From a virus (taxonomy: Duplodnaviria; Caudoviricetes): a stretch of 39,903 nt of DNA. Numbering within the stretch: position 1 is the stretch's first letter; each line of letters starts with the position of its first letter. Below are positions 1 through 39,903 of this stretch, one piece after another. The stretch is taken from the IMG/VR virus record IMGVR_UViG_3300048861_000044, positions 1 through 39,903 of that record. The stretch is one strand, 5' to 3'. The translations under genes and the position numbers were made by a program. The notes beneath the pieces were generated by a model. It saw only the letters and a program-made list of their open reading frames with translations. It did not search any database and was not told the origin of the DNA.

Positions 1-9
1 GATGGTGTC

Positions 10-720
10 TCACTGGCTTATGTCTCCTTGCGCAAAGTTGTCGAATGCGGCGGACCATTGATCGATTGGTGGGGCTTGCTCCAGGTACTCCGAATTCTTA
101 GGAAGAACCCATTGGCCAAGCTCGCGAACTCCCTTTTCAACTTCCTCGTTGAATCGGTAGACCTCGTCCTCCATCCGCTTGATGATTTCCTCGTCCCGCT
201 GAAGGCGAACGATCCATGGCTTGAACCGGGGATGGTAGGACACAAAGTCTGCCCACTCGCGCTCGCAGCAGAGCATGTTCCAATACATCTGCGGCCTGTG
301 CTCCTCTGGGACCACGCCATCCTGCATCCACTCGCAATGGGTCGTGATGCGTCCACACTTGATCTCAATAAGACCGTCGCTGTTGACCAGACCGTCAGGG
401 CTACTCGCAGCGAAATCCCACTCCGGATGCAGTACAAGGCCAACCCGATCCACCATCACATCTCGCTCTACCTCATAGGCAGCTCGAGCGTAAGGCTCTA
501 ACTCTGTACCTCGCTCCATGTCTGCGGAAACGAAGTGATCTGATGCAAGTCCGGTTAGGCGCTCGGTGATGAGCTCAAGGCGGTACTTAGCCCTTGCCGC
601 AGACTCACCTTCTTTTCGCTTGAGGACCGCACATGCGTCTGAGACTCTTGAGGCGGTCACCTTGCCAACTCGGTGAGCTAGCCATTCCGCACTACCTTGC
701 TCTACGTTGACGACGCGCAT
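10..720 (-). CDS. YqaJ-like viral recombinase / lambda-exonuclease family nuclease
   Basis: QGSAEWLAHR...TASR, MERGTELEP, ASSPDGL...IEIKC, PQMYWNM motifs. Confidence 0.93.
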   Translation of the reverse strand: MRVVNVEQGSAEWLAHRVGKVTASRVSDACAVLKRKEGESAARAKYRLELITERLTGLASDHFVSADMERGTELEPYARAAYEVERDVMVDRVGLVLHPEWDFAASSPDGLVNSDGLIEIKCGRITTHCEWMQDGVVPEEHRPQMYWNMLCCEREWADFVSYHPRFKPWIVRLQRDEEIIKRMEDEVYRFNEEVEKGVRELGQWVLPKNSEYLEQAPPIDQWSAAFDNFAQGDISQ

Positions 721-1781
721 TAGTAAGCCACCTTTACATTGGGGATCTGGCCTTTAGCGATAGCAGTGATAGCCTTTCGGGCATCATCATTGGATAAGCC
801 GGCAGCTACCAGAGCCTCCAGGGCCGTGTTGTTGACCTCGGCCCGGTGCGCCTTGTCTTTCTCCCGCGCCTTCGCCTCTTCCTCCGCACGGCGCTTCTCA
901 TTGGCCACACGCTGGCGCTCGGCTTCGATAGCGGCCTGCTTCTCCCGCGCATGACGCTCTTCCGCAGCGATACGATCCGCCTCGGCCTTGCGGGCCTTCA
1001 TCTCTGCGGCTTCTTTTGCGATGATCACGTCGTGCTCACGCTGGCGCGCTTCACGCTCTAAACGTGCTTCTCGCTCAGCAGCTTCTCGTGCAGCCTGCTC
1101 CTCCCGCGCCTTCGCCTCGCGCTCTGCGCGCTCCTTAACTTCGCGGGCGATACGCTCCTCGCGGTCCCGCTGTTCACGCTCAGCCGCCTCAGCACGTAGG
1201 CGAGCTAGCTCGGCGGCTTGCTCCTCGCGTACCTTGATGCGCTCCATGATGTCTTTGGTTCGCAGTATCTCGGCATCGATAACCTGCTTAGCTCTAGCAC
1301 CGAACTCTTGCCAATCTCGCGAGACGTAAGTAGCCTGCAGGAATTGCAGGCGGTATTCGATCTCCTGCGAAGTCTCCGTGGCTCCATACATCGAGCTTTC
1401 CGGGATCTCGGCTATCGCTTTCTCGTGCGCGGCTACTCGCTCTTTCTCGGCATTCTCCCAATCCGTGAGGGGCTTGCGCACTTCGGCCTGCAGCGATTCA
1501 AATTCGTTCCAGACGCGCCGGCCTTCGGCATCTATCACCGCCAAACGCTTTTTCTCGTCGGCAACCAAGGCTTTACGCTGGTCGTCGATGAATGTCTTGC
1601 TTCGTGCGATCTTGTAGGAGAGTGATGCAAGTTCCTTGCGATTGCCGGGGGTGGATATGTCCAGCTTCGCGGCCTGGTCCAATGCCTCAGTCCGGATCTT
1701 CCCGATAATCGGGTCGATGACCTCTGGTTTGAATAGGTCAATCGGTGCGAGTTTTTCAATAACTGCAAGTTCGGTCGACAT
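720..1781 (-). CDS. Conserved phage coiled-coil protein (often mis-annotated as TolA-like) of recombination modules
   Basis: RKELASLSYKIARSKT and VRKPLTDWE motifs, long EAR-rich coiled coil, C-terminal IAKGQIPNVKVAY; 1-nt overlaps with both neighbours. Confidence 0.75.
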   Translation of the reverse strand: MSTELAVIEKLAPIDLFKPEVIDPIIGKIRTEALDQAAKLDISTPGNRKELASLSYKIARSKTFIDDQRKALVADEKKRLAVIDAEGRRVWNEFESLQAEVRKPLTDWENAEKERVAAHEKAIAEIPESSMYGATETSQEIEYRLQFLQATYVSRDWQEFGARAKQVIDAEILRTKDIMERIKVREEQAAELARLRAEAAEREQRDREERIAREVKERAEREAKAREEQAAREAAEREARLEREARQREHDVIIAKEAAEMKARKAEADRIAAEERHAREKQAAIEAERQRVANEKRRAEEEAKAREKDKAHRAEVNNTALEALVAAGLSNDDARKAITAIAKGQIPNVKVAY

Positions 1782-2536
1782 TACCTAGCTTCCTTTCCAT
1801 AGAGCTCTGCCTTCTTCAGGTCCTTGGCTTTGATAAATGCCTGCATCGCGGCCTTATCTCCTAGGTCCTGCGCGATTTTGTAGCCTGCACTGAAGGTCTT
1901 CTGCAGAATGGGGAGGGAGTCTGCAGCTTCGATAAGACCCATCACGCGGTCATAGTCTCCGGTTTCCATCTCTGGCTTTTCGCCAGACCCATTGCCGTCG
2001 TCGTCCACGTTCCCGTCCCGACTTGCGAGCCCGGTAGCCAGCTCGAATACAGCGATCTTGGCGTAGGTGATCGAAGATTTTATTTGCTGGAGGGGGTTCT
2101 TTGCGCCAGAAGTATCCTTCGGAACCGTCATCCACTTTGTCTGCCCTTTGTGACCCAGAGCATGAGTTATAGTGCAACCGACGCGAATCTCTGTTGTTTG
2201 GTCAAGTTCCCACTCCGCGCTCAAGCCGTGCTTGCCGAGCAGCGGGGTCACCGTGTTCACCAGGTTGCCAATGGACGTGTACCTAGACCCGTACTGCTTG
2301 TTCTCTTTGTCCTTCGTGATAACGATGGCTTCCTTTTTGAAATCTGACATCGCTTGGACAAAAGCCTTCTCTGCCTGCTTGGCTTCCCACTGGAACTGCA
2401 TCTCCATCAAGCGCTGCATCCGATCTAAGTCGGCGTTCTGTGACATTGCCATCTGCAGGAGCATCATGGGAGTGACTTCGCTTCGGGGACCCTGAACTTC
2501 GTGAGAGGGATTGATTGTTAGTGTGGTTTCGGACAT
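1781..2536 (-). CDS. erf: ERF-family single-strand annealing recombinase
   Basis: AFVQAMSDF..., Y..I...VTPLLGKHGL, CTITHALGH, NPLQQIKSSITYAK...GL...DDDGN motifs; lies upstream of the YqaJ exonuclease. Confidence 0.85.
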   Translation of the reverse strand: MSETTLTINPSHEVQGPRSEVTPMMLLQMAMSQNADLDRMQRLMEMQFQWEAKQAEKAFVQAMSDFKKEAIVITKDKENKQYGSRYTSIGNLVNTVTPLLGKHGLSAEWELDQTTEIRVGCTITHALGHKGQTKWMTVPKDTSGAKNPLQQIKSSITYAKIAVFELATGLASRDGNVDDDGNGSGEKPEMETGDYDRVMGLIEAADSLPILQKTFSAGYKIAQDLGDKAAMQAFIKAKDLKKAELYGKEAR

Positions 2537-2683
2537 TTACTTGCACCCCATGTCTTCGTCGGCCCAGCCAGCGGCAGTAAGAATCGTCCAGATAAAGAAG
2601 CAGGATGCGACGTAGAGAACGATGGCGCTTCCAAGGATGTAAACTCCGCTCAAATAGCTGATTTCAATTCCGAACATCGTCAT
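2537..2683 (-). CDS. Small single-TM membrane protein (48 aa, MTMFGIEI...)
   Basis: RBS GGGAG, ATGA overlap with upstream gene, hydrophobic stretch; true start is downstream of the 2908 track start. Confidence 0.6.
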   Translation of the reverse strand: MTMFGIEISYLSGVYILGSAIVLYVASCFFIWTILTAAGWADEDMGCK

Positions 2684-8331: not shown

Positions 8332-9258
8332 ATGAACGCAATCAAGCAATTCTTCGCAGATCACAAGATCAGCGCCCATACTTTCGCCGCAGCCTGGGCA
8401 ATTGCAGACGTTCTCTGGTACACCAACACAGACTTTCATGCCTACATCTCAGGCTTGCTCGTAGCCCTCCCCGCTTGGCTCCATGCTCTGATCTTCGGCG
8501 TCGTCGTTCCGGTCCTGGTTTATCTCAAAGCGACCAAGAAGCCAGCCAAGGACCCGAATGAGCAGCAGTCAGCATCGAAGAACTTCGCAGCAGCCCTCCT
8601 ACTCTTCGCCCTGCTGCCACTGGTCACGCTCACCGGATGCAAGACAGCCGCAGTGTCCGGCCAGCCTACCGCGCCTAACCTGAATACCCCGTACCAGAAG
8701 GCCGCGCAGGCAATGTCCGCGTTCGCGTCTGACGTCCAGTCCGCGCAACAGATCGTCATCAACCTTCACAAGGGCGGCGTGATCGACAAGCCAACCGACA
8801 CAGCCATCCAGCTGCAGTTCAAGCAGGTTGCGGTCTACGGAAAGCAGATCGACGCGCTGATCCTCGCTCAAGCCTCTGCGGTCACCATTCAGGCTCGCGT
8901 GAACTCTGCTCTCTCCACACTGAGCCAGATCACGGAAGAGACCGGCAAGCTTGATCCCAACACTCTCCTGCAGGTCCAGGTATCCATCCAGGCCATCCAG
9001 CAGGTTCTCGGAACAGTTCTCGCAGCATTCAATCTCACAACGGCAGAGGTGACTTATGGACCCGATTACTATCGCAGCTTTAGCGGAGCAGGGCGTATTG
9101 CTCGCGTTGCAGATCTACAACCAGGTCAAGGCAGCACAGGCACCCGGCGTTACCTTGCGTCCCTTATCGGACCTGGTAGCGGAAGCGGACTCGAAGTTCG
9201 ATCAGATCTCAGCGACAGCGGATGCAGAGATAGCTTCTGCCTAAGGCTCGCGGCGTAG
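8332..9258 (+). CDS. Membrane protein: holin-like N-terminal TM segments, internal lipoprotein signal (LTG-C103), helical domain; candidate lysis protein
   Basis: Two hydrophobic segments, basic linker, KNFAAALLLFALLPLVTLTGC lipobox; GAGGTG RBS; position typical of lysis cassettes. Confidence 0.65.
   Translation: MNAIKQFFADHKISAHTFAAAWAIADVLWYTNTDFHAYISGLLVALPAWLHALIFGVVVPVLVYLKATKKPAKDPNEQQSASKNFAAALLLFALLPLVTLTGCKTAAVSGQPTAPNLNTPYQKAAQAMSAFASDVQSAQQIVINLHKGGVIDKPTDTAIQLQFKQVAVYGKQIDALILAQASAVTIQARVNSALSTLSQITEETGKLDPNTLLQVQVSIQAIQQVLGTVLAAFNLTTAEVTYGPDYYRSFSGAGRIARVADLQPGQGSTGTRRYLASLIGPGSGSGLEVRSDLSDSGCRDSFCLRLAA
9056..9244 (+). CDS. 62-aa protein embedded in another frame within the 8332-9258 gene
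   Basis: GAGGTG RBS 5 nt before ATG; amphipathic helical sequence MDPITIAALAEQGVLLALQIYNQVK. Confidence 0.7.
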   Translation: MDPITIAALAEQGVLLALQIYNQVKAAQAPGVTLRPLSDLVAEADSKFDQISATADAEIASA

Positions 9259-9384
9259 ATGACGCCGCTCAGCATCCTTGTTACATCTTCTGGAAGACAT
9301 GTCTTGGCTACTAAAACTCGTGGTGGTTCCACGGCACAAACCCCCGAAAGTGAGGGAACTAACCAAAGCGAAGGGGGGCCTGAA

Positions 9385-9657
9385 GTGGAGATAGATCGCG
9401 AGGTACTCATGCACATCATTGACTCAAGGGTGAGCGAGGGAATCCGGAAGTGGTACCAGGACTGGATGCTTCCGTTGCATAACGAGAACAAAGAAGAGCT
9501 CAAGGGTATGAGAGAGACTCTCGGGACGCTCGTAGACACCATGAACCAAGGCAAGGGCGGCATGACCGTAGCAAGGCACTCTGTGCGGGTTATCAATTGG
9601 GCTTTAGGTGCCGCCGGTGCAGCCGCGGTTCTAATCATAAGCCACTACTGGAAGTGA
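9385..9657 (+). CDS. Coiled-coil protein with C-terminal TM helix (holin/antiholin-like)
   Basis: GAAGGGGGG RBS before GTG 9385; WALGAAGAAAVLIISHYW C-terminal TM; start could be 9259. Confidence 0.6.
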   Translation: MEIDREVLMHIIDSRVSEGIRKWYQDWMLPLHNENKEELKGMRETLGTLVDTMNQGKGGMTVARHSVRVINWALGAAGAAAVLIISHYWK

Positions 9658-10228: not shown

Positions 10229-10612
10229 ATGGCCACAGGTAACAGAGGTAAAACAGAGAATTTGATCCCTTATAAGCCGGGACAGTCGGGAAATCCGAGT
10301 GGACGGCCTAAGCGTGCGCCTGTTACGGACTATTTGCGCGACCAGCTTGAGATGGAAGTTCCTAAGGAATTGCTGGATAGAGTCAGCCCACAGGAACTCT
10401 TGATGATGAAACTGGTAATGGGAGAGAAGCCAACATTCGGCCAGTTCGTTGCGTTCAAGTCTATTCAGGCCACACTGAAGGGCGACATTTTTGCGCTCAA
10501 AGAGGTTCTTGACCGTGTTGAGGGCAAGGTGACCCAGAAAGTTGATCATGGCGGGCGGATTACGCTTGAGACGCTTCTGACCTCTGGACATGAGGGCGAG
10601 TCGAGTGAATGA
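10229..10612 (+). CDS. terS: Terminase small subunit (DUF5681-like N-terminal motif)
   Basis: ENLIPYKPGQSGNPSGRPK, VLDRVEGKVTQKVD; ATGA overlap with terL. Confidence 0.8.
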   Translation: MATGNRGKTENLIPYKPGQSGNPSGRPKRAPVTDYLRDQLEMEVPKELLDRVSPQELLMMKLVMGEKPTFGQFVAFKSIQATLKGDIFALKEVLDRVEGKVTQKVDHGGRITLETLLTSGHEGESSE

Positions 10613-12066
10613 CAGACGCTCAGTTACAAGCCTCCGCAAAGCTTAGGGAATGGAAGCACGATCCCATCAAGTTCGTGCGCGAGGTGTTCAAAGTCGAGCC
10701 GGACGCATGGCAGGCTGACACCCTCGCTCATCTCGGCAAGCCTGGACGTAAGCGTATTGCCATGAAAGCCTGCGCTGGCCCTGGCAAGACGGCTTTGCTC
10801 GCATGGGCTGGATGGCATCGCCTTACCTGCTTTGCGGCCAAGAATGAGCATCCCAAAGGCGCCGCAGTCTCGATCACCTCTGACAACCTGCGAGATAACC
10901 TCTGGGCTGAGCTGGCACGTTGGCAGAACGAAAGCCCGTTCTTGCTTCATGCGTTTCAATGGCAGAAGGAGCGTATCTTCGCCAAGGATCATCCCGAGAC
11001 GTGGTTCCTCGCGGCAAAGGGCTGGTCCAAGACTGCGGACATGGATGCGATCGGGCGCACGCTGTCTGGTATGCACTCGCGCTTCCCGTTCTACCTGATC
11101 GATGAGTCTGGCGATATTCCACCCCAGATGATGCGCTCGGCTGAGCAGGGCCTTACCAGCTGCGAGGATGGCTGCATCCTGACTGCGGGCAACACCACAA
11201 GCCAGACCGGGCTGCTGTACGAGGTCAGCACAAAGAACCGGGACCAGTGGGAAGTGATCAGCATCACGGCTGACCCGGATGATCCCAAGCGCACACCTCG
11301 CGTCGATATCGAGTGGGCAGCCGAGCAGATCAAGCTTTATGGGCGTGAGAATCCTTGGGTAATGGCCTACATCCTCGGTCAGTTCCCATCGGGCGCCATC
11401 AATGCGCTGCTGTCAATTGAGGATGTCGAGGCTGCCATCGGTCGACGGCCTGTGCCTGGCTCCTATGAGTGGGCGCAGAAGCGGCTGGGCAATGACGTTG
11501 CGCGCTTCGGTGATGACCGCACTGTGACCTTCCCGCGTCAGGGCCTTGTGGCCTTCCAGCCCATAGTCCAGCGTCACAAGCGGGATTCGGCCGTCAGCGT
11601 GGCTATTGCCGGCACGGTCATGAATAAGAAGGCCGAGTGGAACTCGGAGATGGAGTTCTTTGATGACACGGTAGGCTGGGCCCATGGTGCTGTCGACGTG
11701 ATGCGCGCCAACGGTCATTCGCCTGTGGCTGTCGAGTTCAATGGTGCATCCATCAACCCTCGGTTCTACAACAAGCGTGCCGAGATGTGGTGGAGCATGG
11801 CCGAATGGGTCAAAGCCGGTGGTTGCTTGCCTCCCATCCCTGAACTGATCGGGGAACTTACCAGCCCAACATACTTCTTTGCCCCGAATGGCAAGCTGCA
11901 GATTGAGTCCAAGGACCAGATCAAGAAACGGCTGGGCAAGTCGCCAGACCTCGCGGATGCGCTTGCCCTGACCTTCGCTCTGCCTGACATGCCTGGCGAC
12001 ATGGGAGATGTGAGGCTGCCCAAGCGTCAGACTCAGCGCGACTACGACCCTTACGCTCGGATGTAG
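10609..12066 (+). CDS. terL: Terminase large subunit
   Basis: Walker A-like ACAGPGKT, Walker B YLIDES, TAGN, nuclease DVARFGDDRT and SPDLADAL. Confidence 0.95.
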   Translation: MTDAQLQASAKLREWKHDPIKFVREVFKVEPDAWQADTLAHLGKPGRKRIAMKACAGPGKTALLAWAGWHRLTCFAAKNEHPKGAAVSITSDNLRDNLWAELARWQNESPFLLHAFQWQKERIFAKDHPETWFLAAKGWSKTADMDAIGRTLSGMHSRFPFYLIDESGDIPPQMMRSAEQGLTSCEDGCILTAGNTTSQTGLLYEVSTKNRDQWEVISITADPDDPKRTPRVDIEWAAEQIKLYGRENPWVMAYILGQFPSGAINALLSIEDVEAAIGRRPVPGSYEWAQKRLGNDVARFGDDRTVTFPRQGLVAFQPIVQRHKRDSAVSVAIAGTVMNKKAEWNSEMEFFDDTVGWAHGAVDVMRANGHSPVAVEFNGASINPRFYNKRAEMWWSMAEWVKAGGCLPPIPELIGELTSPTYFFAPNGKLQIESKDQIKKRLGKSPDLADALALTFALPDMPGDMGDVRLPKRQTQRDYDPYARM

Positions 12067-13654: not shown

Positions 13655-15349
13655 ATGACGGATCAAGAGGTCTCCAAAAAGCGCACGCAACTGCTCCAGC
13701 GATGGACAGCTCTCAAAACAGAGCGCTCGTCATGGATGGGTCACTGGCAGGAGCTGAGCACCTATCTCCTCCCGCGCAATGGCCGATTCTTCGTCCAGGA
13801 TCGCGACCGCGGCAACCGGCGGAATGGCAACATCTACGACAACACAGCAACCCGAGCCCTCCGCACACTTGGCGCCGGCATGATGTCGGGAGCTACCAGC
13901 CCTGCGCGTCCGTGGTTCCGTCTCGGCACACCTGACCCAGACATGAACGCCTATCAGCCAGTGAAGATCTGGCTGGATGACGTCTCGCGGCGTATGCACA
14001 TGGTCTTCCAGAAGTCGAACACCTACCGAGCCCTACATCAGATCTATGGCGAGCTAGGAGCGTTCGGCACTGCGGCCTCCATCATCCTTCCCGATTTCGA
14101 TACCGTGATCCACCAGTACTCCCTTACCTGTGGGGAATACTGCATCGCCACAGACTGGCAGGGCAACGTATGCACCCTCTATCGCGAGTTTCAGAAGCAG
14201 GTATCAGAGATCGTCAAAGAGTTCGGCTACGCCAACTGCTCGCAGACGGTGCAGAGTCTTTACAACAACAACGGCCTTGACGCTTGGGTAACCATCATCC
14301 ATGCCATAGAGCCCCGCGCTGATCGCGACCCGTCCAAGAAGGACGCCAAGAACATGGAGTGGGCCAGCTACTACTTCGAGATCGGCAACGAGGGCAAGTT
14401 CCTGCGTGAGAGCGGATTCAAGCGCTTTCCTGGTGTAGCGCCGCGGTGGGATCTGTCCGGCGGCGACATCTACGGCAACTCGCCGGGTATGGAAGCCCTA
14501 GGCGATATCAAGCAGTTGCAGCATGAGCAGCTACGCAAAGCTCAGGCGATCGACTACAAAACGAACCCTCCATTGGCAGCGCCCAGCAGTATGAAGAACA
14601 GGGATATCGAGCGGCTACCTGGTGGCGTCACCTTCTACCCAGATGGTGGCAGTACAGGCAAGATTGAGAGCATGTTCGAGGTCAATCTGGAGCTCAACTA
14701 CCTGCTTCAGGACATTCAGGACGTGCGCCAGCGCATCAATTCGACGTTCTTCTCTGACCTGTTCCTGATGTTGGCTAACTCCTCTGATGTGCGCATGACA
14801 GCCACCGAAGTGGCAATGCGGCAGGAAGAGAAGATGCTGATGCTTGGCCCGGTGCTAGAACGCCTGGACAACGAACTGCTCTATCCGCTGATCGATTCCA
14901 CGTTCTCCTACATGATCGAAGCTGGAGCGATCCCACCGGCTCCGGATGAGATGCAAGGTATGGAGTTGAATGTAGAGATGATCTCCATGCTGGCACAGGC
15001 CCAGCGAGCCATTGGCGTAAACGGAATTGATCGCATGGTCGGAAACCTCGGCGTAGTGGCCCAGATGAAACCGGATGTGCTCGATAAGTTCGACGCAGAC
15101 ACATGGGTAGACGAGTATAGCGACATGCTAGGGGTGGATCCACGGTTGATTGTGGCCAGCGACCAGGTCGCGATCATCCGTCAGAAGCGCGCAGACGCAC
15201 AGGCAGCTGCTGCGAAGTCGGCAGCAATGGAGCAGATGTCGAAGACGGCCAGCAACTTGGGCTCTGTTGCTACGACGGGACCAGGCAATGCTGCTCAGGA
15301 TCTCATGTCGCAGTTCAGCGGCTACACCACAGGGGGTACGCAACAATGA
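13655..15349 (+). CDS. Portal (head-tail connector) protein, T7 gp8/BPP-1 type
   Basis: IYDNTATRALRTLGAGMMSGATSPARPWF, PRW...YGNSPGMEALGDIKQLQ, MTATEV..RQEEK..LGPVLERL. Confidence 0.95.
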   Translation: MTDQEVSKKRTQLLQRWTALKTERSSWMGHWQELSTYLLPRNGRFFVQDRDRGNRRNGNIYDNTATRALRTLGAGMMSGATSPARPWFRLGTPDPDMNAYQPVKIWLDDVSRRMHMVFQKSNTYRALHQIYGELGAFGTAASIILPDFDTVIHQYSLTCGEYCIATDWQGNVCTLYREFQKQVSEIVKEFGYANCSQTVQSLYNNNGLDAWVTIIHAIEPRADRDPSKKDAKNMEWASYYFEIGNEGKFLRESGFKRFPGVAPRWDLSGGDIYGNSPGMEALGDIKQLQHEQLRKAQAIDYKTNPPLAAPSSMKNRDIERLPGGVTFYPDGGSTGKIESMFEVNLELNYLLQDIQDVRQRINSTFFSDLFLMLANSSDVRMTATEVAMRQEEKMLMLGPVLERLDNELLYPLIDSTFSYMIEAGAIPPAPDEMQGMELNVEMISMLAQAQRAIGVNGIDRMVGNLGVVAQMKPDVLDKFDADTWVDEYSDMLGVDPRLIVASDQVAIIRQKRADAQAAAAKSAAMEQMSKTASNLGSVATTGPGNAAQDLMSQFSGYTTGGTQQ

Positions 15350-15663: not shown

Positions 15664-15693
15664 ACCCATAACTTGAAATCACCACGCTACCTT
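15663..15693 (+). promoter_or_regulatory. Late promoter motif 3: GACCCATAAC-N15-TACCTT (leaderless start at 15701)
   Basis: Overlaps the upstream TAG; GTG start 7 nt after the -10 hexamer, no SD. Confidence 0.75.
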
Positions 15694-15700
15694 CACCATT

Positions 15701-16658: not shown

Positions 16659-16664
16659 TGAGAC

Positions 16665-30405: not shown

Positions 30406-31164
30406 ATGGCGGTTAGCTCAACAAATAGGAAGGCTGGTCCGTTCCTCGGGAACGATGTAACTATCACCTTTCCGTTCGTGTTCAAAGTATTTCTGACGAG
30501 CGATCTTTTGGTCGAAGCTATCCAGGCAGGTGCCTTGGATTCTACGGTTCTCGTCCTCGACTCGGATTTTACCGCTGCTCTGAACCCTGATCAGGATACT
30601 GATCCCGGCGGGTCGATCACACTGACCGCTGGCCCATTGGCTACAGGGCACAGGCTGGTCATTACCTCGGACGTGCCCCAGCTCCAAGAAGTAAATCTGA
30701 CCAACCTTGGCGGATTCTTTCCGGATGTGCTCAATGGCGAATTCGACCGGCTGACGATCCTGATTCAACAACTCCAGGTAGAGCAGGCTAGAACGATCAA
30801 GTTCCCACTCACCGACCCCGCAGAAGTCGTTGAATTGCCTCCGGCAGAGCAGAGGGCAGGCAAGTTTCTTTACTTCGGATCTGACGGCACCATATCGCTA
30901 ATATCAGGCTCTCCGGTCGGAACGGCCCTGTTCTCAGGAGTTCTAGCGGGAACGAAAGATGGATCAAACAAGGTCTTTCAGATTACAAACAACGGTTCGC
31001 CTATTGGCGTTCAGCCTTTGCAGGCCACGGTATGGCTGAACTTCCCGCTTATCCCTGGTGATGCTAACGGCTACGACCTGGGCCCTGGTCCTGGTCAGGT
31101 AACGTTCAAGAATGCGCCCGTAGCGGAAGACTCGCTATTCGCATCAGGAGTGTTCTCAGCATGA
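30406..31164 (+). CDS. Tail fibre anchor/adaptor (T7 gp17-like N-terminal attachment domain plus a small C-terminal beta domain)
   Basis: GNDVTITFPFVFKVF...GGSITL...FFPDVLNGEFDRLTILIQQL...LPPAEQRAGKFLYF; only 252 aa. Confidence 0.85.
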   Translation: MAVSSTNRKAGPFLGNDVTITFPFVFKVFLTSDLLVEAIQAGALDSTVLVLDSDFTAALNPDQDTDPGGSITLTAGPLATGHRLVITSDVPQLQEVNLTNLGGFFPDVLNGEFDRLTILIQQLQVEQARTIKFPLTDPAEVVELPPAEQRAGKFLYFGSDGTISLISGSPVGTALFSGVLAGTKDGSNKVFQITNNGSPIGVQPLQATVWLNFPLIPGDANGYDLGPGPGQVTFKNAPVAEDSLFASGVFSA

Positions 31165-33551
31165 AGTCCTTCATCGCAGCAGTGCTGCTGTCGTTTTCTG
31201 TGCCCGTTGTGGCGCAGACCATAAACCCGAGCCAGGTAAGAGGTACAGCTATAGTCCAGACCCCACAGGGATCTCAGGCGATAACTCAGCCGGCGGGTAC
31301 ATCCTTCGATATCGACCACGCCAAGATCGCAAATCTGAACACGAATGGCTGGGTGGTGCCGGGGAATTACGGCGTCGTCTCTGGTGGATCTACGAACACC
31401 GTTACAGCTACCGGCAGTGGAAGCTCTCTAGTGCTATCGTCGGCATCCGACTTCACCCTAAACATGGGAGTAATGGTTCTCCATGGCGGAGGAGCCTGCG
31501 GCTCCGTTTTATCAAAAGGATGCGCGTCCCCTCCTACACCATCAGTGTCTACATCTGGGGCCTCCGGCTCGACAACCTATAGTTACAAATTGGCCTGTAT
31601 CGATGGTCTCGGAGGCGTGGGGGCGGCTGGATCAGCGGGGAGTACGACCAGCGGAAATGCGACTCTAGCCGGCGTGGTCAATGGAACGCAGGTCGGAGGT
31701 AACTACAACGTTGTCACGTGGACGGGAAACAGCGCGTGCACCGAGGTAGCCATCTATCGCAATAATGTCTTGATCGCCTCGGAATATTCGGCTCCGTCTG
31801 GGACGATGACTTACAACGATATCGGAATCGCTCCATGGGTAAACCGAGACATTCCTGCCGCGCCTCCCGCGTCATCTTTGAATGACAACTACATTGGCAA
31901 GATCACAGCGATAAATGGGACATCGGCGACCGTCAGCCCCAACCTAGGGGTGGCAGTTAGCTCGGCAAACCTGTATCACAGCGATACTCCTCTCATTCAA
32001 GCTGCGATCGCAGTGAGCTACTTCGTAAATCTTCCCCCTGGTCTTTACGTGGTGAACTATCCCATCAATTTCAGTAGGGCGGGAGCCAGTGTCCAGTTTG
32101 GTGTAACGGCGGCAATCGTGGGGCATGGGGCAATTCTTTGGACCGATACCGGAGAGATAGCCCTCGACGTTACAGGAGACCAAAATGTTGTCCTTAGCGG
32201 GTTCACGATGCGAGATGGACCTACGAATCCGAGTCACACAGGAATTTATTGTTCCCGAGATACGACGCTTCATGATGATCTCGCGCAAAACATTTTGACT
32301 GACCACCTCATCATCGTTAGCGGTGGTGTGCATAGTTACGGCGGTAGGGGTGGTGTCGCAATCTACAACCATGCCTGTGAAATCCAGCACAACTATGACG
32401 ATCAATTTCAAACGCAACGTTGGTCGGTGATGACCAGCACCAATATAGATCACGTATCCAGCCCGTTCGATGCCACCGATAATATCGGCGTAAGTTCTAT
32501 GTCTCAGGTTGAGTTCTACGGCGCCAATGGATCCGGGTGGACCTTTGGAGAGATCGATAATGCATATTCCATTCTTTATATAGGTGGCTACGGACTAGGA
32601 CCATCTACCGGGGGACATCCGTGGGGCTTTGAAGTAGACGCCGGCAATGCTGGCCGACTTCAGGTCGACCATATGAGGATCGAAGGCAAAGGCGGCCTGC
32701 TGGATATAGCTGCGGGGACAACGCTGCAGGCATCCTACCTGGACGCCGATGTATATCGCGCTGCTCCTTATCTAGGGATTCCGCAAGTTCGGCTCAACAG
32801 CGGAGCCAGTATAGCTAGCGCGGATATGATCCGATCGGATGACTATGGAGGATCGGGTGGATCTATCTCGGCTCTGGTCGATGGGACCAACTGCTCTGTT
32901 CAAAGCTCAATCCTTCGGCTAGGGATATTTGAAACGATCGGTAGCTGCGCCACTTCAGGAAATGGAAATACGATCAGCGGAACCACGGATTATGATCGAT
33001 CGCTTCCTCCGAATATTCAACTCACAGCCAGCGTCAGCCCAACATGGATGAAGCTGGGAACATGGATATCCAACTCTCCATCGATCGGTGCCACCTTAGG
33101 GTTGAAGTTTTATACGGGCGCAGGATTTACTGCGGGAGCCAACAACCAGGCAGTAGCGGAAGCCTTCATCAGAAACGCCAACGGCCTAGGCTCTGCTCCT
33201 AACCTTTCTGGCGCCAGCTTATTCAACTACGGGATATCGGCGCTCATCGGCCTCAAGGTTGTGGCTACCGGAGGAAGTACCAGCGTAACCAATCAGAGTT
33301 GGGACATTTACGTCAATGAGGCGGCCTTCACAAACGGCAACTACATCGTTGAGAAATCCCCCCATGATCAGTGGATCAGTATTGGTACACCGACTGCAGA
33401 TCCCGGTTCTGCCTCCTCCACGATCGTGGTTGGAACTGTAACGACGGTGCCCTCGGCAACAACTGCAACACCATCGGGAACCTGCACACTGAACGGATTC
33501 ATCCCCATGGTGATCGGGAATACGACCGTTCACGTGGCGACTTGTAACTAA
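31161..33551 (+). CDS. Tailspike-like right-handed beta-helix protein with a Sec signal peptide
   Basis: MKSFIAAVLLSFSVPVVA-Q signal; DTPLIQAAI..VNLPPGLYVV pectate-lyase-like cap motif; 10 Cys. Confidence 0.75.
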   Translation: MKSFIAAVLLSFSVPVVAQTINPSQVRGTAIVQTPQGSQAITQPAGTSFDIDHAKIANLNTNGWVVPGNYGVVSGGSTNTVTATGSGSSLVLSSASDFTLNMGVMVLHGGGACGSVLSKGCASPPTPSVSTSGASGSTTYSYKLACIDGLGGVGAAGSAGSTTSGNATLAGVVNGTQVGGNYNVVTWTGNSACTEVAIYRNNVLIASEYSAPSGTMTYNDIGIAPWVNRDIPAAPPASSLNDNYIGKITAINGTSATVSPNLGVAVSSANLYHSDTPLIQAAIAVSYFVNLPPGLYVVNYPINFSRAGASVQFGVTAAIVGHGAILWTDTGEIALDVTGDQNVVLSGFTMRDGPTNPSHTGIYCSRDTTLHDDLAQNILTDHLIIVSGGVHSYGGRGGVAIYNHACEIQHNYDDQFQTQRWSVMTSTNIDHVSSPFDATDNIGVSSMSQVEFYGANGSGWTFGEIDNAYSILYIGGYGLGPSTGGHPWGFEVDAGNAGRLQVDHMRIEGKGGLLDIAAGTTLQASYLDADVYRAAPYLGIPQVRLNSGASIASADMIRSDDYGGSGGSISALVDGTNCSVQSSILRLGIFETIGSCATSGNGNTISGTTDYDRSLPPNIQLTASVSPTWMKLGTWISNSPSIGATLGLKFYTGAGFTAGANNQAVAEAFIRNANGLGSAPNLSGASLFNYGISALIGLKVVATGGSTSVTNQSWDIYVNEAAFTNGNYIVEKSPHDQWISIGTPTADPGSASSTIVVGTVTTVPSATTATPSGTCTLNGFIPMVIGNTTVHVATCN

Positions 33552-33570
33552 AGACTTTTCAGGAGAGAGT

Positions 33571-35448
33571 ATGCGCAAGCTCTATCTATTTTCGATTCTG
33601 TTGGCGATGTCTACAGCCTGCTTCGCGCAGGGTGGATACATCCACGGCAACGGCGATCCCTCTAAGGCGAATCCAGTACCAAACTGCGGTGGCAGTCGCT
33701 TCTACATCGACGACTCGACGGGCCTTCTCTATGTTGCAGCGCAGGGATCGCCTTGCGTGTGGGCGCTAGCAGGCACCAGCAGTGGAACTTCAAGCGGCAC
33801 AAACCCGGCGATCCCTACCGGCGCGCTCGCTGACTATCGCTTCCTGGACGGGACTGGAACTACTGCTAAGGACTCCACCAGCAACGGCAACGATGCGACC
33901 CTCTGCTCTGTAAACTGCACAGCTCCTACTTGGGTCCCCAACGGCCTGAAGTTCGGCGATGAGTCCGCAGTAAACAAGACGGCCGGCGTGTCGCTTCCGG
34001 CCGCCCTCAATGCTTCTCAGACTTACCTCTTCGTTGCCTACCAGAACCCAATCCAGACAGCACTTTTCCCAGTCAACTATTCGACGCTGCTCACGAATTC
34101 AACCGCTGGCGCGCAGTTCAATATTCTCACTTCCTATGTGAACGCTGATGGTGCTTTCGAGGGTGGGTATGGAGTTTCAACCTTCGTCAATGCCACCACG
34201 AACAACTACGGAACCAATGGCTATTCTGGACTCCATGCAATCGCAATGGTCTGCGGCTCCGGATCAGGCACCGTAGATCACCTCTACATCGACGGCATCG
34301 AGGTCAATTACGGCAAAGTCCAAGGCACCTCTTGCGGCGCCCAGACTTCCGGCAATTTGTACATTGGTAATTCCGGCACTGCTCCTTGGCTGACGCAGGG
34401 CGAGTTGAACGGAACGATGTATCGCGCCATATTCTGGCCAACTAAGCTCACCTCGGCTCAAGTCAAGACTGCTTCTTTCGCTGCTCTCCAAGAGGCTAAT
34501 TCACGTGGCATTCAGCAGGGGCCTCAGATCCCTTGGAATATCGGAACCTTCTTGATTCACTTTATTGGTGACTCGATCACTGCGGGTTTTGGCGTCACCA
34601 ATCCGTGGCCGACTCTGGTTGGCGCAATCAATGGTTTGGTTGCAACTGTGAAGAATTGGGGAGTCAATTCTCTATCCGCTCGTCAGATCTCACTAAGCGA
34701 ACAGGACCGCGTTGCTCCTCAGTGCCGATCAATTTCGGGAATCTCTCCGGTCGCCATTGTGTTTGCGGGGACGAACGACTTCATCGGGCCGAATCCAACT
34801 CAGACTGGCGTGAAGGTTTGGGGCGCTTTGCAGTCGGAGATCTCGACTCTCAAGGTTGCCGGTTGCAAAGTCTTCGTCGCCACCATGCTCTCGCGTTCTG
34901 GAACCGGAACCAATAGCGTTTCGAACGACGTGAACAAGAATGCTCTCGACTTACAGATCGCTGGCAACTGGAAAGAGGCTGGTGCAACCGGCCTGATCGA
35001 CTTTGCGAACAATCCTCTGTTGGGCGCAGATGGAGCGAGCGCAAACACGTCCTACTTCCAGGTCGACGCGATTCACCCAAACCAGACCGGGGCAAACCTC
35101 CTCGCTTCCATCGCTACTAGCGTCCTCAACTATTACTATTCGCCCTACAGCCTGGGCAGCCCGCACGTCTATACGGCGAGCGCGACACTCACCAGCGCCG
35201 ATGCCGGAGTGGCGACTGGAACCCTCAGCGCTACTACAGCCTTTGTGATGCCAGACTGCTCGGGCCTCACCGGAGCGCCTTTCCTGATCAGCAACACTCA
35301 GTCAGCGCAGACCGTGACTATTGCAGGTGCAGCTTCTCAGCCAATCAACGGACTGGCTTCGGCCATCACCATACCCGCGAACTCAACCGTGCGCCTGACG
35401 GCGGTGGCGAACCCCTACACCACCTCAGGATGTCATTGGGCAATGTAG
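33571..35448 (+). CDS. LamG/concanavalin-like + SGNH(GDSL) hydrolase with a Sec signal peptide; candidate polysaccharide deacetylase receptor-binding protein
   Basis: MRKLYLFSILLAMSTACFA-Q signal; YRFLDGTGTTAKDS..NGND, LYIDG, LYIG LamG motifs; FIGDSIT, GTND, DAIHPN catalytic blocks. Confidence 0.85.
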   Translation: MRKLYLFSILLAMSTACFAQGGYIHGNGDPSKANPVPNCGGSRFYIDDSTGLLYVAAQGSPCVWALAGTSSGTSSGTNPAIPTGALADYRFLDGTGTTAKDSTSNGNDATLCSVNCTAPTWVPNGLKFGDESAVNKTAGVSLPAALNASQTYLFVAYQNPIQTALFPVNYSTLLTNSTAGAQFNILTSYVNADGAFEGGYGVSTFVNATTNNYGTNGYSGLHAIAMVCGSGSGTVDHLYIDGIEVNYGKVQGTSCGAQTSGNLYIGNSGTAPWLTQGELNGTMYRAIFWPTKLTSAQVKTASFAALQEANSRGIQQGPQIPWNIGTFLIHFIGDSITAGFGVTNPWPTLVGAINGLVATVKNWGVNSLSARQISLSEQDRVAPQCRSISGISPVAIVFAGTNDFIGPNPTQTGVKVWGALQSEISTLKVAGCKVFVATMLSRSGTGTNSVSNDVNKNALDLQIAGNWKEAGATGLIDFANNPLLGADGASANTSYFQVDAIHPNQTGANLLASIATSVLNYYYSPYSLGSPHVYTASATLTSADAGVATGTLSATTAFVMPDCSGLTGAPFLISNTQSAQTVTIAGAASQPINGLASAITIPANSTVRLTAVANPYTTSGCHWAM

Positions 35449-36529: not shown

Positions 36530-37642
36530 CTATGCAAGCTTGTTCATCGCTTCCCGAATCAGCTTGTCATCGACATGGGCATATCGTGTCGTCGTATTGT
36601 GCGAACTGTGGCCGCAGAGTTTTTGTACAACACTGAGATGGACTCCACGCTCCACCAGGCGAGTGGCAAAGGTATGCCTCAGATCGTGCCAGCGCAGGTT
36701 CTTTACCTTGGCCTCCGATCGAGCCTGCTCCCACCACTCACGGTTCTCTCTCATGAGCAGGACGCGTCCGTCGTCTACCATCCTAGAATCGTTCTCGTCA
36801 TCCTTCTTTATCAAGGCAACGGCATCCCGGATTCTTTTGAGATCCATGAGAGCGTCGTGGGTCTTACCGATCATCGGCATATCTAGGGCTCGTCTGTTCT
36901 TCATCATCTCGGGTGGGAGGCGGAAGTATTTTGTTTCCATGTCGATATGCTCATCCCAGCGCAACGAATACAGGTTCCTCTTCCTCAGTCCCGTATTCAT
37001 GGCGAGGGTGAGTTCGTGGGGATGACACTCGAGGTACAGCCTGGTCAGCCTATGCTGTGGCGGGCATTCATCTACCCACTTCTGCAGCACGGACCTGATG
37101 CGCTTCTCCTCTTCCTGTCGCATCCACCGCGGGTGCGGGAGCTCGACGCGAAACTGCTTCAGATCTCGTACTGGGTTGGCCGATACGTAGCCCTCCTCTT
37201 TGGCGTGGCGGTATACGCTGGAGAGTACTGACCGATAACGATTGAGGGTGGATGCCTTCTTGCCCATGTCGACCAGCCAGCGGCGGATCTCTGAGGCCTG
37301 GACGGTGGAAGCTACCCGATCGCCGAACGCCTCTCGAATGGCCCGGATCCGAATCTTGATGCCGTAGATGTCCGAAGGCGCCTCCGGATTGTCTGGGTTC
37401 TGAACATGATCCAGATAGATGTCACAGAGCTTGCCTACCGTCTCCCCGCGGGCTCGGAGGTTCACTATAGGCTGTTTGGTTATCTTGGCTAGGTTGATAG
37501 TCGCCAGAGCCGTCTCGGCGGCCTCGCGGGTTCCAATCCGCTTCCTGATGTATCCGTCTTCTGTCCTAACTCGGATGTACCAGATCCCGCTCCCGGGATA
37601 CTTCTCAAACACGCCTGCTGTATCGTTCTTCTTCCTAGCCAT
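36530..37642 (-). CDS. int: Tyrosine integrase
   Basis: N-terminal arm-binding domain; TGLR, WHDLRHTFATRL, LCGH, TTTRYAH catalytic motifs; adjacent to attP. Confidence 0.96.
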   Translation of the reverse strand: MARKKNDTAGVFEKYPGSGIWYIRVRTEDGYIRKRIGTREAAETALATINLAKITKQPIVNLRARGETVGKLCDIYLDHVQNPDNPEAPSDIYGIKIRIRAIREAFGDRVASTVQASEIRRWLVDMGKKASTLNRYRSVLSSVYRHAKEEGYVSANPVRDLKQFRVELPHPRWMRQEEEKRIRSVLQKWVDECPPQHRLTRLYLECHPHELTLAMNTGLRKRNLYSLRWDEHIDMETKYFRLPPEMMKNRRALDMPMIGKTHDALMDLKRIRDAVALIKKDDENDSRMVDDGRVLLMRENREWWEQARSEAKVKNLRWHDLRHTFATRLVERGVHLSVVQKLCGHSSHNTTTRYAHVDDKLIREAMNKLA

Positions 37643-37792: not shown

Positions 37793-37840
37793 GCCCTTTC
37801 AAGGCTGAGAGTACGGGTTCGATCCCCGTTGGCGCTACCA
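37793..37840 (+). tRNA. 3' half of tRNA-Glu(UUC) = attP core (not a complete tRNA)
   Basis: GCC-CTTTCAA-GGCTG anticodon arm, ACGGG-TTCGATC-CCCGT T-arm, TGGCGCT-A-CCA end; no D-arm or 5' acceptor strand upstream; lies between int and xis. Confidence 0.88.
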
Positions 37841-38374: not shown

Positions 38375-38625
38375 GCTGTCCTCTTTCCATAGGCGGCTTC
38401 CCAAGAGGCCAACTTGTCTAGGTCGGACTTCCTTGGGGCCGAGCTACTGGTGCCATTGCGCTGACGCTTTATTTCGTCCAGCCATATCTTGTAAGGGTGG
38501 TATGCCCGCTGGCCGAACGGATAGGCGTCAAACAGAGCCTTGTCTACTATTGGCTTAGGCTGGCCCTCTGTTTCTCTCAGCACTTTGGAAATGATCGGCG
38601 CTGCTATCTCTCTCCATGACTTCAT
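38371..38625 (-). CDS. Conserved phage hypothetical protein
   Basis: SWREIAAPII...DAYPFGQRAYHPYKIWLDEI; ATGA overlaps. Confidence 0.7.
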   Translation of the reverse strand: MKSWREIAAPIISKVLRETEGQPKPIVDKALFDAYPFGQRAYHPYKIWLDEIKRQRNGTSSSAPRKSDLDKLASWEAAYGKRTA

Positions 38626-38795
38626 CCCTCACCCCTCAACTCTTCCCTAAGACGCTCTTCAGCCTCGGACTCAGTAATGAATATGTCTCCCTCGCGCATC
38701 TTCGTGGCGAACCCTATGACCATGTTTCCTTCTGGGTCCAGATACGGCGTCGGGCTGAATCCGCGCCTTCGCTTCTCTTCGGTGATATCGCTCAT
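38622..38795 (-). CDS. 57-aa protein resembling the N-terminal lobe of GH24 phage lysozymes, catalytically degenerate
   Basis: RGFSPTPYLDPEGNMVIGF...ITESEAEERLREEL; ATGA overlaps on both sides; below ORF-track cutoff. Confidence 0.6.
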   Translation of the reverse strand: MSDITEEKRRRGFSPTPYLDPEGNMVIGFATKMREGDIFITESEAEERLREELRGEG

Positions 38796-39034
38796 GCTGC
38801 TAGATCCTTCTGCTTAGCCTTATAGTCGGCGATGACTTTCTTGTAGAGCTTGTAATTGATCAGGTATTCCATCAGGGGCTTCTGAACCCGCATTATCTGA
38901 CAGATCCTCTCCTCTAGGCCAAGAAAAACTTCTGCTACGAGCCATAGGCCGGCTATTGCCAAGCTGATAGCGCAGGCGGACAACACAGCGGCTCCAGTCC
39001 ACATACACACCTTCTCGATAAGTTGCAGGTTCAT
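38792..39034 (-). CDS. Small membrane protein
   Basis: N-terminal TM segment; GGAAAGGA RBS. Confidence 0.65.
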   Translation of the reverse strand: MNLQLIEKVCMWTGAAVLSACAISLAIAGLWLVAEVFLGLEERICQIMRVQKPLMEYLINYKLYKKVIADYKAKQKDLAA

Positions 39035-39303
39035 GCTGCTATCCTTTCCGAATTATGCCCAAGGTGATGATCTCGATCCAAGAGCTGCAGTACTCGTACT
39101 ATGTTCTGTTCATGATCGACAACAAGAAGATCGGCCGCACGTTTCGCTTCGCCAGCGATGAATTGGTGTACGAGATGCTGCGCAGAGCCCATGCCAACCT
39201 CGAAACAATGAACATCGTGACTAATGCCCTTACCAACCGCAGGCCGGTCATGGTGGCAGTCAACCTTACCGATGAGCAGGTAGCGCAGCTGAAGTGAGGT
39301 CAT
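39031..39303 (-). CDS. Possible antisense overlapping ORF (90 aa) bridging the leftward operon
   Basis: ATGA overlaps at both ends, but in register antisense to 39055-39297. Confidence 0.3.
   Translation of the reverse strand: MTSLQLRYLLIGKVDCHHDRPAVGKGISHDVHCFEVGMGSAQHLVHQFIAGEAKRAADLLVVDHEQNIVRVLQLLDRDHHLGHNSERIAA
39055..39297 (+). CDS. Hypothetical protein inverted within the leftward operon
   Basis: Globular-looking sequence ending VNLTDEQVAQLK; extended -10 TGcTATCCT at 39037-39045, no SD. Confidence 0.7.
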   Translation: MPKVMISIQELQYSYYVLFMIDNKKIGRTFRFASDELVYEMLRRAHANLETMNIVTNALTNRRPVMVAVNLTDEQVAQLK

Positions 39304-39452
39304 TTCGGTATCCATATAGCCCACAGTCCACATCCAGAGCATTGAATTTGACGGTGAGTCTTATTCATCCTGTGCGCCCAGCTATGCCATGCCATATAGC
39401 CTTCGGGGCATTTCGTGTGAATGTGACTTGAGTTGCAATCCTGTTCGCTCAC
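39300..39452 (-). CDS. Small Cys/His zinc-binding phage protein (50 aa)
   Basis: HTKCPEGYMAWHSWAHRMNKTHRQIQCSGCGLWAIW; GGAGGG RBS; GTGA overlap. Confidence 0.7.
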   Translation of the reverse strand: MSEQDCNSSHIHTKCPEGYMAWHSWAHRMNKTHRQIQCSGCGLWAIWIPK

Positions 39453-39903
39453 TTGCCCTCCCTTAGCTTCTCTTCCAACTCATCGATCTTCGCTTGCTGC
39501 GCGTTCCAAGCGGCGGACCAAACGGATTGAGCGTTACGCTTGCCGCGCCAGTCTTTATCTTCAATCCCCGTTGAAGCCCACCACTCCTCAAAGCTCTCTT
39601 GTGCCTCGGCTTGTGGAGCGGGTTTGGGTTGCTCTTTGACGCATACAACATACTGAACACCCGCTATTTCGTCAGCCACTTGTTGAATAAAGTCCTTGTG
39701 GTCAATTACGGCTGTAACTTCATATCGGACTTCGAACTCTTCTCGGTCATCCCCCTGCGTTGTGGCGATAGATGTGGGGGTGGGTTCGGCCTTAGTACCC
39801 ATCTTCGATCCATCAGGATTTTCACATTCGGTCCACTTTCCCCAATCGCTTCCCGAGGGTAGGCGATGCTTCAAAGAAGGCCGGTGCCCTTCGTGTGACC
39901 ACA
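39449..39903 (-). CDS. Hypothetical protein, open to the window edge (probably starts at GTG 13 across the circular junction)
   Basis: No stop from 39901 down to 39452; frame joins GTG at 13-11 if the ends are ligated. Confidence 0.65.
   Translation of the reverse strand, partial: WSHEGHRPSLKHRLPSGSDWGKWTECENPDGSKMGTKAEPTPTSIATTQGDDREEFEVRYEVTAVIDHKDFIQQVADEIAGVQYVVCVKEQPKPAPQAEAQESFEEWWASTGIEDKDWRGKRNAQSVWSAAWNAQQAKIDELEEKLREGK

What the first reader, a model, noticed from the sequence alone, without database searches (positions are those of the whole stretch)
1..39903. Apparently complete tailed-phage genome with no recognisable intact endolysin
Seen: the whole late region and the lysis-cassette slot (8332-9657) contain only membrane proteins. 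I find no intact GH24, GH19, GH108, amidase, M15, CHAP or SLT motifs in any ORF. The only peptidoglycan-enzyme traces are a virion M23 domain lacking one conserved His and a 57-aa GH24-like fragment. Known: dsDNA tailed phages almost always encode an endolysin. Inference: a novel muralytic fold, recruitment of host autolysins, or an unusual exit route, possibly linked to the exported spikes.
Basis: partly seen in the sequence, partly recalled or inferred. Interest (0 to 1): 0.75.

Follow-up and report, generated by a model that had tools for sequence, protein, structure and literature searches.

The report
Soil phage with a stunted lysozyme
This soil-bacterium virus has no intact cell-wall-cutting enzyme in the roughly 93% of its genome that is assembled, only a conserved 57-residue lysozyme stub where its closest relative has the whole enzyme, so it likely borrows a lysozyme from its host to escape, though the enzyme could still lie in the missing piece.

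Summary
Confirmed: no intact endolysin in the 39.9 kb. Not confirmed: completeness. The record is linear, CheckV 93%, and about 3-4 kb of the early leftward arm is probably missing.

It is a BPP-1-like temperate podovirus, likely of Acidobacteriaceae (attP core = tRNA-Glu 3' part). Its closest complete relative, G001, has the same lysin-less cassette but an intact GH24 lysozyme in the early leftward arm near xis. The window has the 57-aa ORF in that slot.

That ORF is not fresh decay. It belongs to a rare family of at least 7 short GH24 N-lobe proteins with Arg in place of the catalytic Glu, and shows purifying selection. The cassette lipoprotein folds as a four-helix bundle, and the virion M23 is degenerate across the clade, so neither replaces a lysin.

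Six of 17 genomes with the exact attB carry a stand-alone, signal-less chromosomal GH24; the enrichment is not significant. Best reading (0.40): the holin releases a lysozyme supplied in trans. Rivals: lysin in the gap (0.25), lysis-poor or defective phage (0.2), unrecognised enzyme (0.1).

The parts
38622..38795 (-). 57-aa mini-GH24: lysozyme N-lobe only, Arg at the catalytic Glu site (EK.RRGF in place of IK.FEGF), no C-lobe; start and stop overlap the neighbouring genes
   Evidence: PF00959 E 2.6e-4; family of short proteins; weak Foldseek top hits to GH24; pS 0.77 vs pN 0.34 against the G006 copy; identical in contigs of runs X1 and X2
38629..38645 (-). 17-nt gene-end linker (encodes EELRGE) shared with the 3' end of the intact G001 GH24 and of the G006 mini-gene
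8332..9258 (+). Holin-like membrane domain (aa 1-74) fused to a lipobox lipoprotein (Cys103 to about aa 241, predicted four-helix bundle, spanin-like by position); the frame runs on over the next gene
   Evidence: 80% identity to the 80-aa G001 gene; lipoprotein part homologous to the separate G001 lipoprotein, E 5e-7; model pLDDT 84; fold searches. Holin and spanin roles are inferred, no HMM hit
9056..9244 (+). 62-aa cassette protein, positional counterpart of a 70-aa G001 gene
   Evidence: phmmer E 0.04
9259..9657 (+). Helical protein with one C-terminal transmembrane segment
   Evidence: hydropathy; Atlas model low confidence, no named family over the bar
22301..24502 (+). Internal virion (ejection) protein with a degenerate M23 domain at aa 329-426 (about nt 23285-23578)
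   Evidence: same or worse degeneration in 7 of 7 related loci with the domain
37793..37840 (+). attP core: 48 nt identical to the 3' part of a host tRNA-Glu(TTC), flanked by phage DNA on both sides (excised form)
   Evidence: the 5' half of the same tRNA is a loose end in run X2
36530..37642 (-). Tyrosine integrase
   Evidence: PF00589
37881..38117 (-). Excisionase-like HTH protein
   Evidence: phrog_66
39449..39903 (-). ORF open at the contig end; matches the C-terminal part of 316-337 aa genes of G006 and G001; marks the probable gap in the early leftward arm
10609..12066 (+). Terminase large subunit, used to find relatives and the host clade
13655..21601 (+). BPP-1-like podovirus head and tail block (portal, Bbp19-like, scaffold, GP7 capsid, Bbp16, adaptor, nozzle)
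31161..35448 (+). Two spike-like genes with signal-peptide-like N-termini; the second has a GDSL esterase domain

Best explanation
This temperate podovirus, likely of Acidobacteriaceae, keeps holin-like and lipoprotein genes in its lysis cassette but has only a 57-residue lysozyme stub without its catalytic glutamate in the slot where its closest complete relative carries an intact GH24, so it likely breaks the wall with a lysozyme supplied in trans, most likely the stand-alone GH24 found in part of its predicted host genus. Shown: the lysin-less cassette is shared with G001; G001's GH24 sits in the early leftward arm near xis; the stub is a conserved family under purifying selection; genomes with the exact attB often carry a chromosomal GH24 with an intact Glu/Asp/Thr triad and no signal or SAR segment. 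Inferred: because a canonical cytoplasmic lysozyme is harmless until a holin opens the membrane (established for lambda-type lysis, recalled), its gene need not sit in the late cassette or even in the phage. The lineage first moved it to the early arm and could then lose it where a host or co-resident prophage enzyme covers the job. The stub was kept for a non-catalytic role; my guess is a decoy or damper for a lysozyme or for a host protein that recognises one, which is untested.
For: G001 (complete, direct terminal repeats; terminase 74%, portal 81%, capsid 91%; 33 of 52 window genes match) has the same cassette order with no lysin and an intact 150-aa GH24 in the early left arm (PF00959 E 1e-47). 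G006, a different phage, has a lysin-less cassette and a 55-aa stub near the xis end of a left arm seen over 5.2 kb up to YqaJ, where no full lysin was found. Stub family: the 5 best-ranked short hits of the 1.84-billion-protein search share EK.RRG[FY]; 7 sequences at 33-75% identity form one clade, 100/94; pS 0.77 vs pN 0.34, p 2e-5. Host: terminase relatives in Terracidiphilus and Alloacidobacterium genomes; exact attB in 3 of 401 family genomes and 17 of 101 genomes of the G204 genus; 7 of those 17 have a GH24, 6 of them in non-phage surroundings, G204's between lpdA and hemB with no phage genes seen over 20 kb; no hydrophobic N-terminus in 13 such enzymes. Of 10 near-complete terminase relatives, 2 (G007 with terminal repeats, G010 provirus) also showed no lysin candidate. 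The attP form occurs in two runs and a 10.3-kb identical contig comes from a separate record.
Against: About 3-4 kb of exactly the arm that holds G001's lysin is probably unassembled. The attB-GH24 association is not significant: 7 of 17 vs 21 of 84, Fisher p 0.23; 10 of 17 attB-exact genomes showed no GH24 (many are incomplete), and G338, one of the 3 family-level exact matches, has only a divergent weak hit. The actual host strain is unknown. G006 is only 56% complete, so it may hold a lysin after its tail genes. HMM libraries miss some cassette candidates in this clade (L008 protein: no Pfam, NCBIfam or PHROG hit), so the negatives for G007 and G010 are soft. 8 of 10 relatives do carry a lysin candidate of their own. 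No expression data exist for the stub or the host GH24.
Confidence: 0.4

Rival explanations
1. The endolysin is ordinary and lies in the unassembled 3-4 kb of the early leftward arm; the apparent absence is an assembly gap and the stub is an unrelated accessory gene.
For: Linear record, 93%. The contig starts exactly where similarity to G006 ends, as expected for a graph branch. A contig of run X2 runs 220 nt past position 1, yet the only X2 record that overran the 30000-39903 stretch did so at the 30000 end. Slot-to-recombinase distance is 4.6 kb in G001 and 5.2 kb in G006 but 1.3 kb here. G001 shows that this arm can hold a lysin.
Against: In both relatives the stretch that corresponds to the gap showed no lysin; G001's enzyme lies in the part that is assembled here. 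A direct end-to-start join reads in frame, so a gap is likely, not proven.
Confidence: 0.25
2. The phage has lost its lysin and is lysis-poor: the holin kills the cell and progeny leak out slowly or when the cell decays, or it persists mainly as a prophage.
For: No intact lysin; 10 of 17 attB-exact genomes showed no GH24. [quoted passage not shown]
Against: All head, tail, replication and integration genes are intact; the excised attP form is assembled and the sequence recurs in two runs and a further record; the stub is under selection rather than decaying.
Confidence: 0.2
3. A protein in the assembled part is an unrecognised muralytic enzyme (cassette protein, small early ORF, or a hidden domain of the 1966-aa ejection protein).
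For: Libraries miss some lysin candidates of this clade. Only two ORFs were folded.
Against: The cassette lipoprotein is a four-helix bundle with a homologue in lysin-bearing G001; the other unassigned real genes are mostly under 100 aa or membrane-bound; virion proteins are shared with G001.
Confidence: 0.1
4. The virion M23 domain, or the 57-aa stub itself, serves as the endolysin.
For: M23 keeps HxxxD and the second His of HxH; the stub keeps the GH24 beta-hairpin.
Against: M23 lacks the first His of HxH here and in G001, and has lost most zinc ligands in 5 of 7 related loci. The stub lacks the catalytic Glu and the whole C-lobe, and no separate C-lobe is encoded; Asp and Thr are not conserved in the family.
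Confidence: 0.05

Closest known systems
Canonical holin-endolysin-spanin lysis (lambda S/R/Rz/Rz1, T4 t/e; recalled)
   Same: Late cassette before the terminase with a small membrane protein and a lipoprotein; GH24 without signal peptide, which depends on a holin.
   Different: No lysin in the cassette; in G001 the GH24 is in the early leftward arm, and here it is reduced to a non-catalytic N-lobe. Holin-like and lipoprotein parts are fused in one ORF.
GH24 phage lysozymes (PF00959, T4 lysozyme-like)
   Same: Helix A, EG-site position, Y-x-D-x-x-G hairpin, IG[YF] motif and the start of the long helix.
   Different: Arg for the catalytic Glu, charged residues at two positions that are hydrophobic in full-length relatives, no C-lobe, 55-61 aa in most members.
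PM2 (Corticoviridae) lysis without a recognised endolysin
   Same: Membrane-acting lysis proteins and no endolysin recognised in the phage proteome (PMC1950889, passage read); use of a host lytic factor is recalled from Krupovic 2007, of which only the citation was seen.
   Different: PM2 is tailless and lytic; here a tailed temperate phage, with a specific candidate host enzyme of phage origin and a retained lysozyme stub.
BPP-1-like podoviruses
   Same: GP7 capsid, Bbp16, Bbp19-like, T7-type portal and nozzle, three ejection proteins.
   Different: Predicted acidobacterial host, degenerate M23 in an ejection protein, signal-bearing spikes; best cultured terminase match only 43%.

Membership tests
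GH24 lysozyme (active endolysin) | Catalytic Glu at the end of helix A (EG motif) | tested here: not met
   Arg in 7 of 7 stub family members; Glu in 26 of 27 full-length comparators whose site could be read or inspected
GH24 lysozyme (active endolysin) | Asp and Thr of the catalytic loop | tested here: not met
   Window keeps Asp but has Val for Thr; neither is invariant in the family
GH24 lysozyme (active endolysin) | C-terminal helical lobe forming the cleft | tested here: not met
   Match ends at profile position 49 of 125; no C-lobe elsewhere in six frames; unassembled gap not testable
GH24-derived fold (descent) | N-lobe sequence and structure likeness | tested here: met
   PF00959 E 2.6e-4; phrog_7 hits for 4 of 5 other members tested; Foldseek top hits GH24 but weak, E 0.036
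M23 zinc endopeptidase (active) | HxxxD zinc ligands | tested here: met
   HDGID at aa 330
M23 zinc endopeptidase (active) | HxH motif with both histidines (need for the first His recalled from LytM) | tested here: not met
   TLH in the window, VLH in G001 and G007, further loss in 5 other loci
Holin | Small membrane protein that forms timed holes | tested here: inconclusive
   Hydrophobic segments and first position in the cassette; no Pfam, PHROG or NCBIfam holin hit; hole formation not testable
Spanin | Lipoprotein plus inner-membrane anchor that fuse the membranes | tested here: inconclusive
   Lipobox-like LTGC and helical bundle; no spanin family hit
Known muralytic folds (cassette lipoprotein) | Structural match to a peptidoglycan hydrolase | tested here: inconclusive
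   Listed matches are four-helix bundles, top Z 15.2, rmsd 2.8 over 124 residues; no hydrolase among the listed rows, which does not formally exclude one
Complete phage genome | Terminal repeat or closed circle | tested here: not met
Host-lysozyme-dependent lysis | Lysis needs the host enzyme | not testable with these tools
   Only genomic co-occurrence, not significant

The most novel reading that the evidence does not exclude
A lineage of tailed acidobacterial phages has outsourced its endolysin: the enzyme left the late cassette for the early arm, then shrank to a catalytically dead N-lobe that now regulates or decoys lysozyme, while the holin releases a domesticated GH24 from the host chromosome.
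Probability: 0.3. Interest if true: 0.8.

Novelty: new variant of a known kind. Interest (0 to 1): 0.52.

Why it matters
Tailed phages are assumed to carry their own endolysin in the late cassette. This clade shows three states side by side: lysin in the cassette, lysin moved to the early arm, and lysin reduced to a conserved non-catalytic stub. If the host's stand-alone GH24 does the cutting, host range would depend on a host lysis gene, the orphan lysozymes of Acidobacteriaceae would have a role, and the often missing lysis annotation of acidobacterial phages (3 of 5 high-quality vOTUs had lysis genes in PMC11924767) would have a testable cause. The stub family is a small, selected, lysozyme-derived protein of unknown function in any case. 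If the lysin lies in the gap, only the stub family and the displaced lysin of G001 remain of interest.

Tried and rejected
Direct circular join: it reads in frame with a GTG overlapping the YqaJ stop, but the GTG lies in DNA shared with G006 and the frame has a one-in-three chance; run X2 and arm lengths argue against it. Search for a contig that bridges the gap: the start pattern found only G006, the end pattern nothing. Stub as a fresh deletion of the G001 enzyme: rejected (31% identity; no longer close form, which is weak evidence). Split lysozyme: no C-lobe in the window, and the downstream gene differs between window and G006. Complex prediction of stub with host GH24: no answer, score 0.01 against a mark of 0.32; it counts neither way. 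More stub-bearing genomes: viral scans gave only G006, the metagenome scan one chance hit, cultured phages none, 401 family and 217 genus genomes only full-length GH24. Holin and ejection-protein scans found no relative beyond G001. Portal search in 217 genus genomes found no close prophage. The 50-nt att pattern found nothing in genome contigs because it included two phage bases. No RNA holder listed. Promoter scan no better than shuffles. A second Fisher test (strong hits only, p 0.05) used 15 instead of 16 non-attB genomes and is not relied on. Earlier findings: none returned. Paper searches listed nothing on short non-catalytic GH24 proteins or on host GH24 use by tailed phages; listings only, except passages of four papers.
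Full report
What the window is. It is the whole IMG/VR record G000, classed linear, CheckV 93%. The gene set is that of a temperate BPP-1-like podovirus: recombination genes and repressor on the left, replication, RusA and HNH, a membrane-protein cassette, terminase, T7-type portal, GP7 capsid, nozzle, three ejection proteins, two spikes, a methyltransferase, integrase and excisionase. The closest terminases in named genomes are in Terracidiphilus and Alloacidobacterium assemblies (69-71%). The 48-nt attP core at 37793-37840 is the 3' part of a tRNA-Glu(TTC); it matches exactly in 3 of 401 genomes of the family of the Terracidiphilus genome (Acidobacteriaceae by my knowledge) and in 17 of 101 genomes of the genus of G204. 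The 5' half of that tRNA appears as a loose end in run X2.

The absence. Pfam on 57 genes and 254 other frames, PHROGs, NCBIfam, four six-frame family searches, tblastn with relatives' lysins and a home-built GH24 profile leave two traces: the M23 domain in ejection protein 22301-24502 and the 57-aa ORF 38622-38795. Frames of 45-74 aa inside structural genes were not all scanned. Contigs of run X2 cover 6630-10700 and both runs cover the short ORF without differences, so neither is an assembly error; one run may be the source.

Completeness. The ends join in frame on paper, but four things point to a gap. There is no terminal overlap. The contig begins exactly where a module shared with phage G006 ends. 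An X2 contig extends 220 nt beyond position 1 while no X2 record overran position 39903 (read from the count of overrunning records; the letters were not seen). The last ORF matches the C-terminal part of 316-337 aa genes, and the arm is 1.3 kb here against 4.6 and 5.2 kb in relatives. About 3-4 kb is probably missing. No bridging contig was found.

The cassette. ORF 8332-9258 is a holin-like domain, 80% identical to an 80-aa gene of G001, fused to a lipoprotein homologous to G001's next gene (E 5e-7). Its last 67 codons overlap a 62-aa gene. The lipoprotein domain models well (pLDDT 84) as a four-helix bundle with no hydrolase among the listed matches. Similar fused membrane-lipoprotein genes occur in relatives, one beside an M15 peptidase. 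Holin and spanin roles are inferred from position and anatomy only.

Relatives. G001 is complete and close (33 of 52 genes match). Its cassette also lacks a lysin, but an intact GH24 lies in its early leftward arm a few genes before xis, the slot that the 57-aa ORF fills here; both end in the same 17-nt linker. Of 10 terminase relatives at least 90% complete and at least 67% identical, 8 have a lysin candidate: GH24 (G001, G009, G014), a phrog_90 endolysin (G004), M15 (G012), Tlde1-domain (G011, G013) and one SLT-like by inspection only, with no library hit (G008). G007 and G010 showed none in partial Pfam scans of selected ORFs of at least 105 aa plus family and tblastn searches. Three more distant records were left out of this count. 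The M23 domain lacks the first His of HxH in G001 and G007 and most ligands in five other loci, so it is unlikely to be the lysin.

The stub. It is only 31% identical to the G001 enzyme. Homologues of the same size exist: P0002 (78%), a 55-aa gene in the same slot of G006, and P0004, P0005, P0006 and P0008 from a profile search of 1.84 billion proteins, where short forms rank above nearly all full-length lysozymes. All seven have EK.RRG[FY] where full enzymes have a hydrophobic residue, K, x, F/H, E, G, and they group together (100/94; short rows and long branches weaken this). Some come from contigs under 1.5 kb and could be cut short; those ending in EELRGE are not. Window against G006: synonymous sites saturated (pS 0.77), pN 0.34, p 2e-5. 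Part of that signal could predate truncation, but the shared derived motif argues for selection on the short form. The family is rare: a second search recovered only its seven inputs. Its model is a helix, hairpin and helix, with weak top hits to GH24. In G006 neither the cassette nor 5.2 kb of left arm showed a full lysin, but G006 is 56% complete.

A candidate enzyme in trans. GH24 genes occur in 34 of 301 family genomes and 28 of 101 genus genomes (this count includes one unpublished genome, G426, on which nothing else here rests). Many sit among housekeeping genes; G204's lies between lpdA and hemB with no phage genes seen in 20 kb. They keep Glu, Asp and Thr and have no hydrophobic N-terminus, so they would need a holin to reach the wall. 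Seven of the 17 attB-exact genomes have a GH24, six of the stand-alone kind judged mostly from 3-kb surroundings; against 21 of 84 others this is not significant (p 0.23).

Mechanism. Shown: the gene arrangement, the stub family and its selection, the host clade, the existence of host GH24. Inferred: late holin opens the inner membrane, a cytoplasmic lysozyme from the host chromosome or a co-resident prophage cuts the wall, and the lipoprotein deals with the outer membrane. That holins release unrelated canonical lysozymes, and the catalytic residues of T4 lysozyme and LytM, are recalled. The role of the stub is open.

Literature. Passages read: PMC11924767 (lysis genes predicted in all 5 Tunturi isolates but 3 of 5 high-quality acidobacterial vOTUs; its supplementary gene tables were not read and may bear on where acidobacterial phages keep their lysins), PMC1950889 (no endolysin recognised in PM2), PMC8136144 (10 Stx prophages without detected endolysin or holin), PMC5968864 (nothing relevant). 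Eight searches listed no paper on this stub family or on host GH24 use by tailed phages; most subscription journals are not covered.

Verdict. What remains is a displaced and then stunted endolysin with a plausible host substitute. New variant of a known kind; interest 0.52.

Noticed in passing
L031:11686-12138 (G001): Intact GH24 endolysin in the early leftward arm near xis, about 28 kb round the circle from a lysin-less late cassette, in a complete phage genome.
   Followed up: partly
L089, L082, L125-L137, L151 (Acidobacteriaceae chromosomes): A conserved stand-alone GH24 family among housekeeping genes (hemB, aconitase, YqeY, TonB receptor), apparently domesticated; function unknown.
   Followed up: partly
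G007 (L004, L043, L044) and G010 (L009, L047, L048): Two more near-complete relatives with no lysin candidate found; G007 has ParA, DnaB and a resolvase and may be plasmid-like.
   Followed up: partly
window 31161-35448; L031:4687-8840; L047:11412-18453: Spike or fibre-position genes with Sec-type signal-like N-termini throughout the clade, odd for virion parts assembled in the cytoplasm; they may be lysogenic surface or secreted proteins.
   Followed up: no
L008:966-1487, L020:7234-7785, L045:14960-15445: Cassette protein family in the lysin position with no Pfam, NCBIfam or PHROG hit; a candidate unrecognised endolysin.
   Followed up: partly
L019:8876-9247, L049:4070-4435: Tlde1-domain proteins (PF10908) in the lysin position of phage cassettes.
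   Followed up: no
L008:2057-2560, L016:7835-8383, L020:8665-9189, L015:293-772: Second cassette gene resembling a permuted papain-like amidase by inspection (phrog_1128 hit), alongside another lysin candidate.
   Followed up: no
window 38172-38266, 39250-39303, 39481-39514; L039; L031: Short linker repeats shared between phages in the early leftward arm; public-run contigs skip between them, suggesting a shuffled gene-cassette array and explaining assembly breaks.
   Followed up: partly
window 9056-9258: The holin-lipoprotein frame lacks a stop and runs over the whole 62-aa next gene; identical in run X2.
   Followed up: partly
window 35524-36399: Class I SAM methyltransferase moron between tail genes and integrase, absent from G001.
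   Followed up: no
L039:4349-4972 (G006): PEP-CTERM-bearing protein encoded in a phage early arm.
   Followed up: no
window 3791-8249: Five Cro/CI-type HTH genes, with a 19-nt inverted repeat pair at 3740-3758 and 4783-4801 that may be operators.
   Followed up: no
window 12104-13295: GNAT acetyltransferase and a short-fibre-like cupin gene conserved between terminase and portal across the clade.
   Followed up: no
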